Assembly (NCBI GenBank): GCA_963771075.1
Contig: CAVYSE010000028.1
Location: forward strand, 64,001-128,000
From: a candidate division FCPU426 bacterium
GTDB taxonomy: Bacteria > Oederibacteriota > Muellerivitia > Muellerivitales > Muellerivitaceae
Length of the DNA stretch: 64,000 nt
Direction: 5' to 3'
Each line of letters starts with the position of its first letter. Position 1 is the stretch's first letter. Positions 44,888 through 50,033 of this stretch are shown piece after piece. The position numbers and the translations under genes were made by a program. The notes beneath the pieces are model-generated. The model saw only the letters and a program-made list of their open reading frames with translations, searched no databases and was not told the origin of the DNA.

Positions 44888-45205
44888 GTGATATCAACAC
44901 TGCCACAATGCGTGAAAGAGATCGCAGAATTCCCCCAAGATGTACGGGAAGATCTCGCCGACGCTTTAGCACGATTGGATGAAGGTCACACGCTTTCCAT
45001 GCCCCTGTCCCGGCCGATGCCTTCAATTGGAAAGGGTGTACATGAATTGAGATTCAGGGATCGTGCAGGAATTTATCGGGTGATCTATATTTTGGTTGGC
45101 GCGGGAATCATTTATTTGGTTCATGCATTTGTGAAAAAAGACAAGAAGACGCCGATGCCGAATATTGATTTGGCGAAAAGACGCTTAAAGGAAGTGAAAA
45201 GATGA
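44888..45205 (+). CDS. RelE/ParE-superfamily (HigB/Gp49-like) toxin
   Basis: SRPMPSIGKGVHELR...YRVIY...LVHAFVKK...TP. Confidence 0.9.
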   Translation: MISTLPQCVKEIAEFPQDVREDLADALARLDEGHTLSMPLSRPMPSIGKGVHELRFRDRAGIYRVIYILVGAGIIYLVHAFVKKDKKTPMPNIDLAKRRLKEVKR

Positions 45206-45489
45206 AACATAAAAGTACGGCGGTTGAAATTGCGAAATTGGTAGGTATTTCTCCAGCGAGAGGAATGGAGGCTATTATCAAAGCACAACTGATAACAGCT
45301 GTTTTGCAAGCCATTCAAGTTAAGAAAATGACTCATCAGGAACTCGCTAAGCGCGCAAAGCTCCCCAGGAGCGCCGTGACGGGTATTCTTTCTGGCAGTT
45401 TGCAGAAGGTCACCATTGATCGAGTTCTGAGACTCATTGAAGCGGCGGGTCTTATCGCGGAGATTCGAATCAGAAAATCTGCCGCCTAA
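45202..45489 (+). CDS. XRE-family HTH antitoxin (HigA-like)
   Basis: MTHQELAKRAKLPRSAVT HTH; ATGA overlap with the toxin gene. Confidence 0.88.
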   Translation: MKHKSTAVEIAKLVGISPARGMEAIIKAQLITAVLQAIQVKKMTHQELAKRAKLPRSAVTGILSGSLQKVTIDRVLRLIEAAGLIAEIRIRKSAA

Positions 45490-45623
45490 AGAAAGTTCTG
45501 GGGGAACATTACCGAATAAAAACAAAGATAGCATGTATGGGCCAGCGACCTGCGTAGTAGCTTGATCAATAGTAGCTGATCAAAAACGCGGGTTGCTCCT
45601 GTTAAGGAGCCTGAACATTGGGG

Positions 45624-45895
45624 TCACCTATGAAAAAGAATGTCCAGGCAAAAGCGTAGTATCACGGCCCCAAGTCCAACCTGAGTCTCAAAGGACTACA
45701 AGTCAGTCACCTATTCGCGGTTGTTTCACCGCACGATAACGTTGGACCCGGCCGCTCAATCACCTATGAAAAAGAATGTCCAGGCAAAAGCGTAGTATCA
45801 CGGCCCCAAGTCCAACCTGAGTCTCAAAGGACTACAAGTCAGTCACCTATTCGCGGTTGTTTCACCGCACGATAACGTTGGACCCGGCCGCTCAA
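45624..45895. repeat. Perfect 136-bp tandem duplication
   Basis: 45624-45759 is identical to 45760-45895. Confidence 0.95.
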
Positions 45896-45925
45896 TCAGG
45901 CCAAGGACCTCAACTCTTGCGGGTT
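45790..45925 (-). ncRNA. Putative bridge/seek RNA of the IS1111-type element (ends approximate)
   Basis: Non-coding region 3' of the transposase; segments match the target (ggcctga, gggtc) and the circle junction (gttatc, ataggtga). Confidence 0.7.
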
Positions 45926-45928
45926 GTG

Positions 45929-46951
45929 TCAGACCCCGTCGGAGCTGGCCGGGCAGTCCTCAAAAGCTTCCTTCTTTCGTAACATATGAAAGATGCTTTT
46001 CAGCATAGCCCTTGCTACTGCTATTCGTCCCGCGTTATTCCCATGCTTCTTCTTCACCCTCGTGTATAAGGTCCCATACCGTCGGGTTTTGCGAATGGCA
46101 TGAAGCGAGTTCTCAACCAATATCCAGCGAATCCATTTAGAACCCTGTTTGGTGATGTGGCCGTTGTGGCTTTTTCCCCCTGATGCGTGAACACTGGGGA
46201 CCAATCCACCATAAGAACATAGATGTTCCGCGTCCGGGAACCGGCGAATATCCCCAATCTCGCTCAAAATTAATAAAGCCGAAAAGGCACCCACGCCTGG
46301 CATGGTCATCATCAGCTGGGCTTCCGGGCTTTCTGCTGCCATTTTCTTGATCACCTCTTCTGATTTGGCGATCTCTTGGCCTAGTTCCCGGATTACTTCC
46401 ATATATCCGTCCAGTTCCAAACGGTAGCAAGGCCGGGTACCTACCGTGGCAAGTTCGCGGAAGTTCTTTATTCCGAATCGGTTTTTAGTAACGGGTTCGA
46501 TTCCCGCCTTGGTCATGACCGAAGTCATCCGGTTTTTGGCTTGTGTTCTCAATTGCACCAGGGAAGCCCGGTACCTAAGGATTTCCCGTAAGTCGCGGAT
46601 CTCTCGGGGTGGCACATAGGCTCGTGGCAGCAGATCCACCCGCAAAAGTTGAGCCAGGATTCCCGAATCAATTTTATCCGTCTTGATCTTGGCCGAGGCT
46701 ATGGCTTTGACCTTTTGGGGGTGGGCCAATACCAGGTTGGGGAATCGATCCTCGATGAGTTCGTAAAAGTGATACCAATGACCTGTGGCTTCTACTACGA
46801 CCTGGCTACTCACGGGTTGCTTCTTGAAATAAGCCTTTAAAGTATCCGCGTCGTTCTTCAGATCGACTTGTTCCAGCACCTTTCCTTTCTCATTCACTCT
46901 CGTGACGTAGGATGTTTTCTGGTGTAGGTCTACTCCGATATACTGTCCCAC
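45929..46951 (-). CDS. IS110-family DEDD transposase/recombinase
   Basis: IGVDLH, VVVEATG, KTDKID, PGVG and GLVPSVHASGG motifs. Confidence 0.95.
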   Translation of the reverse strand: MGQYIGVDLHQKTSYVTRVNEKGKVLEQVDLKNDADTLKAYFKKQPVSSQVVVEATGHWYHFYELIEDRFPNLVLAHPQKVKAIASAKIKTDKIDSGILAQLLRVDLLPRAYVPPREIRDLREILRYRASLVQLRTQAKNRMTSVMTKAGIEPVTKNRFGIKNFRELATVGTRPCYRLELDGYMEVIRELGQEIAKSEEVIKKMAAESPEAQLMMTMPGVGAFSALLILSEIGDIRRFPDAEHLCSYGGLVPSVHASGGKSHNGHITKQGSKWIRWILVENSLHAIRKTRRYGTLYTRVKKKHGNNAGRIAVARAMLKSIFHMLRKKEAFEDCPASSDGV

Positions 46952-47091
46952 GGCTGCACCTCCTAAGCGTTTTGCACCACCTGCAAAGGTGAGTGCCTTT
47001 TCGACTCTGGGTTTATCCTAGAGCCTCGTCCCACTTAAGTGGAGACGCTCTACGCTTGGAGCTCTGCAGCCTTTTTCATGTTATCAGGTCT

Positions 47092-47184
47092 TTATTTTAT
47101 ATTATCTATCCGGGCCTTGAACCGCGTCTCTCCCTCCATCCGCTTCTTTATTATCGCTATCCGGTTCCCCACGGCCGAAGAAGA
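47092..47184 (-). pseudogene. C-terminal remnant of a RAYT-like transposase HTH
   Basis: SSSAVGNRIAIIKKRMEGETRFKARIDNIK*, similar to 50022-50216; followed directly by the agaccTGA target half-site. Confidence 0.5.
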
Positions 47185-47486
47185 AAAAAGGCGCCTGGCC
47201 AACATTCAACACTTTAAGCCGTTCATTCCCCTGGAGTCATTGATCATCGTACTCCTGGAATCTCCCTGGCGCCCTTCAGGAAATCAGTTTACAGTTCGCC
47301 CCAATAGCTCATGGCAATTGGGATCACCAAACCACGCCTCTCACCTTGAAGGTTCGAGGCAGGAGACAGTTCGCAGCCCATAAACGGCAGAAAAACTGCA
47401 ACATTATTGACCGATTTTGACCCTTTAGGCCTGTTCCCCACCCAAATATTCGCTTTCATTCGATTTTCCAATTGACGCACAAAAGC

Positions 47487-47650
47487 ATAGCTATTAGTTA
47501 TTAGCTGTTAGCGTTTAGCTGCGGCCTAAACCAAGAGCAAGAAGCTAACACCTTAGGGGAGAATTCCATTAGTTGGCGGTCGACAGTCGACGGTCGGCAG
47601 TTAGGCCTTTAAAGCTGGCTGTCGACAGTGGGCTGTGGACTGTCGACGGC
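47487..47650. repeat. Degenerate heptamer arrays in inverted arrangement
   Basis: gctatta/gttatta/gctgtta/gcgttta and ggtcgac/agtcgac/tgtcgac/tgtggac units. Confidence 0.6.
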
Positions 47651-47666
47651 CTTTGGAGGCTCCGCT

Positions 47667-50033
47667 ATGTCACAATCCCCATCTACCCCCGGTACACCCG
47701 AAGAATCGCCAAAAGCAAACCCGCCCGAAATCCTGGTCGTTTCCCTGGACCAGATGCTGGTCGTGCCGGAGGACAACCCCCGGGGGGCCTACCCCCAGCA
47801 AGATGTCTTGGACATGGCCCGAACCCTCAAGCAGTCCGGACAGGAGGATCCCATCCTCCTGAGGCGCCGGACGCCCGAGGAAAGGGCTCAGGCCCACCCG
47901 GACATTCCCTATCGGCTGGTAGGGGGATTCCTCCGTGTTGCCGCCGCCCCCCTGGCGGGCCTGGCCGCCCTTGAAGCCATTGTGCGGGATATGACCCCCC
48001 AAAAGGCACTGCAAGCCGCAATCCTGGACAATGTTCGTAAAGACATGAATTGGCTGGCCTGGGCCCAATCCGCCGATAGCCTGATTAAGGACGGAATGAA
48101 GCTCCAAGAAGCCTCCGATGCACTTGCGAAAGATGCCTCATGGGTCGGAAAACTGCTAAAACTGTTGTCATTATTGGATTTTCCAACACGCCAGCTCATT
48201 TCGGAAAATTTCCGGAAAAAGGACGGTTACGACCTTCCGGAATCCCATGCCCACTGTTTGGAAGACCTGGCGACCGGGGGGCCAAACGATCAGGTTCTTA
48301 TAGGTAATGCCATACGAGTGGTAATAGACCGCCAAATGCCTTTTGAACTTGTGAAAAAGCTGGTCGAATGGATCCAAAAGGGAAACAGCCCTGAAAGCTT
48401 CCCCCAAGACGGCAAAACAGAGGTCAAGAAGGGGGTTAAAAACCAGAGGTTCGACCCCGCCGACCCCCTGGCCAAGCTTTGGCAAGACCTGCCCCGCACC
48501 ATCAAGGTGCGTCCGACACCCAAGGGCTATAAGGCGGTACTGGCCCTTTCTAAAGACGAAGCGGTACTGGCCCTTTATGGCGCCCTGGGCACGGTGGAGG
48601 AGGCCAAGAGGCTTCAAGGCCAGCCCCATGACCCCCGGTTCGCGGCTGCTTTGGCTGACCTCATTCCTGGAGGTAGGCCTGGTGGAATTCTGAATGCGTC
48701 CTTTCCGGCCTCCCCCGCCAGCCTGGGCCTGGGCTCCTGGCTTAAAGGGGTATGGGCGGCATGGATGGGCAGTCTTAAAGCTGGCGGTCCGAAGACACCA
48801 GCTGACAGCCCACAGTCGTCGGTCGACAGCACGCCAAACCCCGGGACAATGGAAAAAACTATATGGGAACTCTTGGCGGGGATCCCTATCACCGCCAAGA
48901 TAAGGGCCAAAGTCAAGAAGGGGGAAAGGCCGACCTTTTGGGAAGTTCTCATCCTCCTTTTAGCCATCCTTGGGATGTTTTTGGGCTTGCTGGGGAAATA
49001 CCTTTGGAAATTTGCCCAGGGGGGTTGGCGTTTGGCGAAGACCTTCCTCGGAAAGGCCTTCCGGCTCCTGGGGGAGGTGGTAGGCAAGCCCGCCAAGAAA
49101 ATAACCCAGGGCGTGGTGGGTATCGCCTTGGTAGTGGGCCTGGCTTATGGGCTCTATCTATTCTTCTTCCACCCGGCAGGGCTAAGGGGCTTGTTGAGCC
49201 GGACCGCCTCCGGGGCAATCCATTGGGTAGGGTCTTGGGTAAACCCTTGGGAAGGCGATACGCACACCGATTCCCCTAAGGAATCGGTGCAATCAAGTCA
49301 TGGGCCTCAACCCGAAGTTTCGGCCCAGATGAAGCCAGAGTCGGTACCTACGCCTGGTCTGAAACCTCCGGTTTCGGACCAAGCCTTGGCAGTACCCATA
49401 TCTAAATCAGATATGGGTACCCCTGTTCCCACGCCTGAGGTTTTTAAAACTAAGCGCCTAAAACTCAAAACTTCTAAATCTCTGAAAAAGTCCATTCCGG
49501 TGGCAGTGGTTTCAACGCAAAACTCAACACCTAAAACTGAGAACGCGGCCCCATCGGGCCAGTCCCAGTTGGACCTTCTCAACCAAATCAACGCGGAATC
49601 AAAAACCGCCCAGGCTTTCGCCCAGGCCTTTTACGCGGCGGATTATAACGACCTGTTGGGCAGGAGAACCAAACTCAACAAATATTTGAGGCCAGGCTAT
49701 TCCGGCGCTTTTTTCAAAGCCTTTCCAACCGGTTTGAAGATCAAGGAAATCGGCGAACATAAGCTGGTTGAAAGTTTCAAACCCTCGGGCGACGCGAAAC
49801 TGTTGAGGTCGGACGATCAATCGGAGGAATTCCAAGTGGAGGGCACCTTGGTCACCCGGAGTGAGATGGATATTACGGACCCCGTCACCACCCAAAAACC
49901 CGCGGGGCTCGTGATTGACCTCTCCCGTGAGCCGGAGTCGAAGGGGCTGGTGACCGGGGTGAGGGAAATGGTTTTTCCGGGAAAAAAGGTCAGCCCGGAA
50001 ATACAGGGGCCAGGCCAACATTTAACACTTTGA
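47667..50033 (+). CDS. ParB N-terminal domain protein with TM helices and a C-terminal extracytoplasmic domain
   Basis: NPR...GQEDPILL...YRLVGGFLRVAA...DNVRKD plus HTH; two hydrophobic segments; RBS ggagg before ATG 47667. Confidence 0.75.
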   Translation: MSQSPSTPGTPEESPKANPPEILVVSLDQMLVVPEDNPRGAYPQQDVLDMARTLKQSGQEDPILLRRRTPEERAQAHPDIPYRLVGGFLRVAAAPLAGLAALEAIVRDMTPQKALQAAILDNVRKDMNWLAWAQSADSLIKDGMKLQEASDALAKDASWVGKLLKLLSLLDFPTRQLISENFRKKDGYDLPESHAHCLEDLATGGPNDQVLIGNAIRVVIDRQMPFELVKKLVEWIQKGNSPESFPQDGKTEVKKGVKNQRFDPADPLAKLWQDLPRTIKVRPTPKGYKAVLALSKDEAVLALYGALGTVEEAKRLQGQPHDPRFAAALADLIPGGRPGGILNASFPASPASLGLGSWLKGVWAAWMGSLKAGGPKTPADSPQSSVDSTPNPGTMEKTIWELLAGIPITAKIRAKVKKGERPTFWEVLILLLAILGMFLGLLGKYLWKFAQGGWRLAKTFLGKAFRLLGEVVGKPAKKITQGVVGIALVVGLAYGLYLFFFHPAGLRGLLSRTASGAIHWVGSWVNPWEGDTHTDSPKESVQSSHGPQPEVSAQMKPESVPTPGLKPPVSDQALAVPISKSDMGTPVPTPEVFKTKRLKLKTSKSLKKSIPVAVVSTQNSTPKTENAAPSGQSQLDLLNQINAESKTAQAFAQAFYAADYNDLLGRRTKLNKYLRPGYSGAFFKAFPTGLKIKEIGEHKLVESFKPSGDAKLLRSDDQSEEFQVEGTLVTRSEMDITDPVTTQKPAGLVIDLSREPESKGLVTGVREMVFPGKKVSPEIQGPGQHLTL

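What the first reader, a model, noticed from the sequence alone, without database searches (positions are those of the whole stretch)
45624..45902. IS1111-type RNA-encoding end duplicated exactly at the element's own target guide
Seen: a perfect 136-bp tandem repeat. On the minus strand the junction is right end ...cataggTGA joined to ttgagcgg..., the sequence that normally follows ggccTGA inside the element's non-coding RNA. So the element end recombined at a TGA core lying within the DNA that encodes the putative left target guide. Inferred: self-targeting. The guide-encoding DNA resembles the target, so a circle inserted into a sister copy and the nested pair later collapsed. The result is a second, 5'-truncated guide RNA and two usable right ends, a possible route to guide arrays or RNA-only mini-circles.
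Basis: partly seen in the sequence, partly recalled or inferred. Interest (0 to 1): 0.75.

Follow-up and report, generated by a model that had tools for sequence, protein, structure and literature searches.

The report
Jumping gene recombined at own guide
An RNA-guided jumping gene carries an exact 136-base duplication of its tail that joins its right end to the DNA spelling its own targeting guide, probably a misfire of its own enzyme; such tail duplications are already reported, but this particular break point is a new, testable detail.

Summary
The 136-bp tandem is exact (45624-45898, 2x136+3). It lies in an IS1111-type element with seven identical 1,324-bp copies in the genome; only this copy has it. 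The junction joins the right end, at the TGA core, to the bases just after the left target guide. Covariation with flanks over 14 distinct guides supports that guide. The unit is the donor-binding loop plus a right end; it holds no target guide, so it is no guide array. Best reading: one-step half-match recombination by the element's own recombinase; nested insertion then collapse is possible but not needed. Right-end-anchored non-coding tandems are already reported for IS110 (Hu et al. 2026 preprint, n=468), with the other boundary undefined in the parts I read. New here: that boundary is the guide-coding DNA. One relative has a transposase-less mini-element starting exactly there (L130), two within 0-9 nt (L261, L185), but orphan right ends with other breakpoints are common. 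No second tandem was found, and no reads of this assembly were available. The scan noted a similar tail duplication elsewhere (e1-780204, untested). New variant of a known kind; interest 0.45.

The parts
47084..47086 (-). TGA core at the left junction (left target AAGACC | core)
   Evidence: identical element sequence starts after this TGA in all copies while the flanks differ
47050..47083 (-). Left end: TAAC (right-donor side, with -10 box TAACAT 47083-47078) and left subterminal inverted repeat (perfect 9 bp at 47079-47071, 30 nt at 70%)
45929..46951 (-). IS110-family DEDD recombinase, 340 aa, intact, identical in 7 copies
   Evidence: PF01548 + PF02371; NF033542 238 bits, cut-off 140; E54, D92, D95, S257 invariant and D8 nearly so in A1
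45884..45952 (-). Predicted target-binding loop: outer stem 45952-45942 pairing with 45893-45884, beginning inside the last codons of the recombinase gene
   Evidence: single-sequence fold z -2.0; consensus fold of 17 sequences, 13 of 25 pairs with two-sided changes; inferred RNA, not shown expressed
45932..45937 (-). Predicted right target guide GGGGTC (complement of GA-CCCC), 5' of the left guide as described for IS1111 elements
   Evidence: right flanks CCCC/CTCC; order as in PMC11187229; not tested by a shuffle
45896..45904 (-). Left target guide TTGGCC + TGA core: the internal break point of the duplication
   Evidence: left flanks AAGACC x3, TTGGCC x2, GTAGCC, CAGGCC; covariation 47 of 56 vs shuffled mean 24.3
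45760..45895 (-). Original copy of the unit: 3' strand of the target-loop stem, donor-binding loop (about 45883-45810; right donor guide 45876-45871, left donor guide 45850-45843), -35 box, inner right end with core TGA 45762-45760
45624..45759 (-). Extra copy: second donor-binding loop (about 45747-45674) without target guides, -35 box TGGACA 45646-45641, outer right end (inverted repeat 45638-45630, AGG, core TGA 45626-45624)
   Evidence: exact duplicate
45620..45623 (-). Right half of the target (CCCC), continuing the genomic repeat into which the element inserted
   Evidence: 19 empty copies of this repeat end read ...TGA CCC
47087..47200 (-). Multicopy genomic repeat that supplies the target (left flank)
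   Evidence: 24 matches to its last 27 nt, 5 occupied, 19 empty

Best explanation
The element's own RNA-guided recombinase made the duplication in one step. SHOWN: the right end (left-donor half + TGA) is fused at the core to the bases behind the left target guide. INFERRED: the DNA that templates this guide is by construction a perfect left-target half-site with a core in register, 136 bp from the right end. A recombinase-RNA complex on the right junction took this half-match as its partner. Between sister chromosomes, or by single-strand transfer resolved in place, that yields this tandem; within one molecule it yields a 136-bp donor-loop circle, which could also have re-entered here. The locus now encodes, by read-through only, an RNA with one target loop and two donor loops, and has two donor-matching right ends (circles of 1,324 or 1,460 bp). 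It is most likely a neutral misfire, not an adaptation.
For: Both sides of the junction lie at guide-defined cores, with only 3 nt of homology. The site matches the left target guide 6 of 6 and its right side TTGA can pair with the right target guide by two G.T wobbles next to the core; a natural target with such a wobble is occupied (C11). A better right-donor look-alike nearer the end (45800, TGA TACT) was not used. All 7 copies are identical, so the enzyme was recently active. Papers: one half-site, including a new left target, sufficed for IS621 in vitro (10.64898/2026.08.31.748434); right-junction transfer to a new target was shown for CazIS110 (10.1101/2025.10.25.684509); left-donor-anchored non-coding tandems are common and proposed to be resolved in place (10.64898/2026.08.14.744561). 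Recurrence: L130 (G101) is a transposase-less piece from this same core to the right end, in register in that genome's standard target repeat, 133 of 140 identical to the full copy, and differing from the guide at the base before the core.
Against: One event in one assembly; reads of that assembly were not available, and the assembly holds a fold-back that looks like a long-read artefact. No second tandem: 0 of 81 related loci and no adjacent pair in the pattern scans. The two outer right-target positions mismatch, and ISPpu10's right guide is stringent (10.64898/2026.03.19.712850). Orphan right ends with breakpoints elsewhere are common: of 36 sites aligned, 30 stop short of the guide (some are chance 13-mer hits), 3 extend well beyond it, 3 stop at it; L261 and L185 are ambiguous and genomes entered that set because they had pattern hits. 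All biochemistry cited is from IS621-type or CazIS110 enzymes, 2 papers of it preprints; this enzyme is distant from IS621 (40 bits).
Confidence: 0.55

Rival explanations
1. Donor-loop-only half-match: the right end was recognised, the partner needed only a TGA core, and landing on the guide is coincidence.
For: Donor-loop-only complexes recombine (PMC13626964; 10.1101/2025.05.14.653916); repeat boundaries keep left-donor-only matches; many orphan right ends break elsewhere.
Against: 1 of 12 nearby TGA sites is the guide and that one was used; L130 breaks at the same core.
Confidence: 0.15
2. One reading: a full circle inserted into the guide site of a sister copy, then the two 1.18-kb direct repeats collapsed by homologous recombination.
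For: Gives the same product; a full donor plus a left-target half-site recombines; IS110 loci take repeated insertions.
Against: Two steps. A free circle had 45 perfect empty sites and about 920 sites as good as this one in the genome, whereas the one-step route explains the choice by proximity. No nested intermediate seen. The 7 copies are identical, so no marker can tell the routes apart.
Confidence: 0.12
3. Assembly artefact: the chromosome has one unit; a chimeric read, or reads of a real mini-circle, were built into the consensus.
For: C18 carries a 2.1-kb fold-back through another copy, 91% identity with 50 gaps; only 1 of 7 copies is affected.
Against: The locus lies mid-contig (C28 109,624 of 430,233) and is error-free against six other copies; a random artefact has no reason to join two cores.
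Confidence: 0.12
4. Replication slippage on 3 nt of microhomology, independent of the recombinase.
For: Short tandem duplications are frequent next to these targets. For L130, deletion between the left junction and the guide could use their shared TGAT.
Against: Both breakpoints sit on functional cores. The flank duplications follow another rule: they contain the CCCC side of the target, this unit does not.
Confidence: 0.06

Closest known systems
Tandem non-coding repeat units and partial circles at IS110 loci (Hu et al., bioRxiv 10.64898/2026.08.14.744561, Figs 4B, 4E, 5B as described in text and legends)
   Same: Tandem of a non-coding unit beside the recombinase gene, anchored at the left-donor (right-end) boundary, one-sided donor match; recurrent internal endpoints.
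   Different: In the parts read, the other boundary is 'yet to be defined' and is not tied to the target guide; 'IS1111' and 'TBL' occur 0 times in the main text. Figures and supplements were not visible and could show such a case.
IS1111-family seekRNA elements ISEc11, ISKpn4, ISPa11 (PMC11187229); IS1111 bridge RNAs (PMC11208160)
   Same: Subterminal inverted repeats, 7-bp and 3-bp extensions, RNA region behind the gene, top-strand guide before bottom-strand guide, circle-junction promoter.
   Different: Other target (RRCC TGA CYCC in a genomic repeat); no duplicated end described in the parts read; RNA here only predicted.
Half-match recombination of IS621 (10.64898/2026.08.31.748434) and direct transfer of CazIS110 (10.1101/2025.10.25.684509)
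   Same: A core plus one matching arm suffices; a single junction can be transferred.
   Different: Shown for other enzymes on synthetic or genomic sites, not on the element's own guide-coding DNA.
ISPpu9 / ssr9 modules of Pseudomonas putida (PMC12288879)
   Same: RNA-only module behind the recombinase gene with its own right end; circles from alternative ends; stand-alone copies.
   Different: ssr9 is bounded by its own A' and B' end boxes; the unit here has no left-end repeat and starts inside the target loop.

Membership tests
IS110 family | DEDD recombinase with C-terminal Tnp domain and catalytic serine motif | tested here: met
   PF01548, PF02371; NF033542 above cut-off; D8, E54, D92, D95, S257 conserved
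IS1111 group | Subterminal inverted repeats, usually 11-13 bp | tested here: inconclusive
   9 bp perfect, 30 nt at 70%: present but the perfect part is shorter than the usual length given in PMC11187229
IS1111 group | 7-bp left and 3-bp right terminal extensions, no further target duplication | tested here: met
   TGATAAC and AGG; empty sites hold one TGA
IS1111 group | Long non-coding region behind the gene; recombinase of 330-350 aa | tested here: met
   about 170 nt behind the stop; 340 aa
IS1111 group | Recombinase falls in the IS1111 clade | not tested
   no tree with named reference elements was built
Bridge/seek RNA system | Target guides match both strands of the target and covary with it | tested here: met
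   left guide: 14 distinct guides, 47 of 56 identical, 0 of 10,000 shuffles reach it (kin not independent); right guide by inspection only
Bridge/seek RNA system | Two-loop RNA fold with donor guides matching the circle junction | tested here: met
   consensus fold; ATAGGTGA and GTTATC match the two ends; no Rfam family
Bridge/seek RNA system | RNA expressed, bound by the enzyme, needed for circles | not testable with these tools
   needs RNA-seq and biochemistry
Left-donor-anchored tandem non-coding units (Hu et al.) | At least 2 copies, at least 50 bp, at least 95% identical, beside the gene, boundary matching one donor arm only | tested here: met
   2 x 136 bp, 100%, TRF score 550; left donor exact, right donor 1 match + 1 wobble of 4; their second program ULTRA was not run
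Guide array (CRISPR- or TIGR-like) | Repeated units each with its own target guide | tested here: not met
   the unit contains neither target guide and the copies are identical
ssr9-like mobile RNA module | Free circles or stand-alone copies of the unit | tested here: inconclusive
   no stand-alone copy in G000; one clean stand-alone equivalent in G101, which could also be an in-place deletion; circles not testable

The most novel reading that the evidence does not exclude
Every bridge-RNA element carries built-in self-targets: the DNA templating its left target guide is a perfect half-site with a core. This is a main source of the recurrent, unexplained internal endpoints of IS110 tandems and partial circles, and it releases a 130-140-bp donor-loop-only module that moves to real target sites (L130) and, as RNA, shifts the enzyme towards target-independent excision: a minimal parasite or regulator cut out of the guide RNA gene itself.
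Probability: 0.25. Interest if true: 0.72.

Novelty: new variant of a known kind. Interest (0 to 1): 0.45.

Why it matters
It offers a concrete rule for a gap left open in the largest survey of IS110 expansion (what the second boundary of one-sided events is), testable at once on 468 tandem loci and 5,813 partial circles. If guide-coding DNA is a substrate, bridge-RNA expression cassettes used for genome editing are intrinsic off-target sites, and donor-loop-only RNAs, so far engineered constructs in the papers read, occur in nature. If the coincidence does not hold up, the locus is one more right-end tandem of a reported class.

Tried and rejected
Reads: 21 runs listed, all as assembled contigs; no RNA holder listed. 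Four runs laid (X1, X2, X4, X7): no joint reported and no listed contig crosses 45759/45760; X1 and X7 contigs cover the whole single-copy element. Contigs drop rare variants and these may be other strains, so this is no evidence either way. Junction 19-mer in metagenome contigs: 13 hits, 0 of 13 near a related recombinase or sharing more than about 30 nt: chance. First genome-contig scan with the single protein: 0 of 36 confirmed. Viral contigs: 1 relative; motif scan 17 hits, 1 of 17 beside a recombinase, no tandem. Loose motif scans of 351 and 301 genomes gave mostly chance hits. Rhizobial IS1111-like plasmid element as an outside test: 60 of 117 and 60 of 106 records shown, best place only; of 4 followed up, L375 is split by an IS66, L376 and L377 are too diverged, L378 begins near the left donor guide core but ambiguously: no clean case. 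My automatic target-loop classifier mislabelled many intact loci; only its total (60 distinct sites, 8 in G000) is used and the rest was judged by eye. An alternative right target guide just after the left guide was rejected: it lies in the stem. A guide array was rejected. The flank-repeat process was rejected for this junction. Rfam: 1 weak tmRNA fragment below cut-off. Literature searches for self-targeting or guide-encoding DNA returned no paper stating it in title, abstract or the passages read; subscription papers, figures and bioRxiv supplements were not visible. No structure prediction was run.

Full report
OBSERVATION. The repeat is as described: two identical 136-nt units at 45624-45759 and 45760-45895, with 3 more matching bases, so the only homology at the join is TGA on the minus strand. 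It lies at the 3' end of an IS110-family recombinase gene (45929-46951, minus, 340 aa). The genome (28 contigs, 4.39 Mb) has 7 full copies, identical over 1,324 bp; 1 of 7 has the duplication.

ELEMENT ENDS AND TARGET. The flanks of the 7 copies fix the ends and give the target RRCC TGA CYCC (left flanks AAGACC x3, TTGGCC x2, GTAGCC, CAGGCC; right flanks CCCC x6, CTCC x1). The 7-bp and 3-bp extensions beyond subterminal inverted repeats and the RNA region behind the gene fit the IS1111 group as defined in PMC11187229 (read: abstract, Introduction, Results parts 1-2 of 4); the perfect repeat is 9 bp, shorter than the usual 11-13. A circle would join -35 TGGACA, 17 bp and -10 TAACAT; the tandem junction gives TTGAGC instead.

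GUIDES. In IS1111 elements the top-strand guide precedes the bottom-strand guide. Here that gives right target guide GGGGTC (45937-45932, in the last codons), left target guide TTGGCC-TGA (45904-45896), right donor guide GTTATC and left donor guide ATAGGTGA. Relatives came (best 80 of 484). In 36 loci where both guide and left flank could be read, one pair per distinct guide (14) gave 47 of 56 identical positions (shuffled mean 24.3, maximum 41, 0 of 10,000) and 54 of 56 with wobble (mean 36.6, maximum 48); relatives are not independent. A consensus fold of 17 sequences closes the target loop just behind the left guide and opens the donor loop next to it; 13 of 25 pairs have two-sided changes. 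The target loop is still predicted in the longer transcript. Expression is not shown.

IS THE JUNCTION SPECIAL? Of 12 TGA sites in the last 300 nt only the one used matches the left target guide (6 of 6); its right side can pair with the right guide by two G.T wobbles and then mismatches twice; a closer right-donor look-alike was passed over. rG:dT pairs are tolerated by IS621 (PMC11208160, passages), while ISPpu10's right guide is stringent (10.64898/2026.03.19.712850, passages). Alone this is about a 1-in-12 coincidence under a core-only rule.

RECURRENCE. No second tandem: 0 of 81 related loci (0 of 79 without L099 and L117, which come from an unpublished genome on which nothing else here rests), and no adjacent pair in motif scans of 5, 5, 351, 301, 51, 131, 151, 50, 7, 251 and 49 genomes, sets that overlap. 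Most are fragmented assemblies in which repeats collapse. Of 60 distinct sites with the motif and a right end (8 in G000, 2 at contig edges), three outside G000 lack recombinase and target loop and begin at or near the guide core. L130 (G101, which also has two full copies) is clean: its left flank is that genome's target repeat, seen empty in L135, in register with TGA; the base before the core differs from the guide; the body is 133 of 140 identical to the full copy; the right flank is CCCC. L261 (G1140) breaks within 2 nt and L185 (G506) within about 9 nt, but both follow a TGACCCC-type flank repeat and could come from another process. Against a special role: orphan right ends are common; of 36 sites aligned, 30 stop 15-121 nt from the end, short of the guide (some are chance hits), 3 extend further upstream (L220, L221, L250), 3 stop at the guide; L274 has an internal deletion ending about 25 nt upstream. 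The motif starts at the guide and genomes were chosen by hits, so I give no P value. L130 may be a re-inserted circle or an in-place deletion; either uses the same core.

MECHANISM. Shown: fusion of the right end to the post-guide sequence at the core. Inferred: the guide-coding DNA is a built-in left-target half-site. A single half-site suffices for IS621 (10.64898/2026.08.31.748434; read parts 1-4 of 6); the right junction can be transferred directly to a new target by CazIS110 (10.1101/2025.10.25.684509; abstract and Results part 2 of 3); donor-loop-only RNA supports excision and two target loops do not form a productive complex (PMC13626964; abstract, Discussion, passages; also 10.1101/2025.05.14.653916, passages). 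One exchange between the right end and the guide site on a sister chromosome gives this product. The nested route gives the same product in two steps, and a free circle had 45 perfect empty sites and about 920 equally good half-sites to choose from; proximity favours one step. Identical copies leave no marker to decide. Artefact cannot be excluded: C18 holds a 2.1-kb fold-back with 50 gaps through another copy, which I read as a long-read artefact (inference).

WHAT IS KNOWN. Hu et al. (10.64898/2026.08.14.744561; abstract, passages, sections 8 and 9; figures and supplements not seen) report tandem non-coding units beside IS110 genes (n=468) whose boundaries keep left-donor-only matches, recurrent internal endpoints of partial circles, and re-integration of partial elements, and leave the other boundaries undefined. 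ISPpu9 makes RNA-only circles from dedicated end boxes (PMC12288879; abstract, section 15). The locus therefore belongs to a reported class. I found no statement that the target-guide DNA is the break point (searches; limits as listed). Two earlier notes of this scan touch the theme on other DNA; I did not test them and do not count them as support.

VERDICT. Observation confirmed; interpretation partly supported. Works like half-match bridge recombination; the element is an IS1111-type member of the IS110 family by the features tested; the tandem is a new variant of a known kind. Interest 0.45; if the guide-core rule proves general (probability 0.25), 0.72.

Noticed in passing
window 47084-47200 and 23 further matches in G000: The target is the end of a multicopy repeat of variable length ending AAGACC TGA CCCC plus a short tail; 19 of 24 matches are empty. 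I recall this motif beside REP-associated tyrosine transposase genes; one paper search found nothing, so the label is recalled only.
   Followed up: partly
G000 C19 and C26 right flanks, empty sites C11:544982 and C26:77303; L050, L083, L250: Short tandem duplications (13-20 bp) that begin exactly with TGACCCC occur at empty and occupied targets alike; cause unexplained.
   Followed up: partly
G000 C18 about 280,100-284,540: Fold-back of 2.1 kb through a partial copy of the element, 91% identity with 50 gaps, at the contig end: probably a long-read artefact.
   Followed up: partly
G000 C6:2793-2829 and C1:118275-118331; many sites in relatives, e.g. G1102: Orphan right ends of 15-120 bp, often still followed by CCC, are abundant in this clade.
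   Followed up: partly
L015 (G003:C71:8361-8441), L220, L221: Bridge-RNA-like sequences with no related recombinase found in the locus (G003 has no match to this protein at 1e-40).
   Followed up: partly
window 45929-45952: The predicted target loop begins inside the recombinase gene; the right target guide is spelled by its last codons.
   Followed up: yes
L070 upstream of the gene; L065 and L219; L274: L070 has an inverted right end where the left end should be; L065 and L219 show a second left end about 50 bp behind a right end; L274 lacks almost the whole gene by internal deletion.
   Followed up: no
L378 (NZ_CP064191.1, about 155,557-155,708): Fragment of a rhizobial IS1111-like element that starts near the left donor guide core and runs to the right end; diverged, boundary uncertain.
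   Followed up: partly
window 44888-45489: Gp49/RelE-like gene and HTH_37 gene pair, a likely toxin-antitoxin module, beside the insertion; a ParB-domain gene at 47628-50033 on the other side.
   Followed up: no
window 45555-45583: 14-bp tandem (2 copies, 93%) in the right flank, 40 bp from the element.
   Followed up: no
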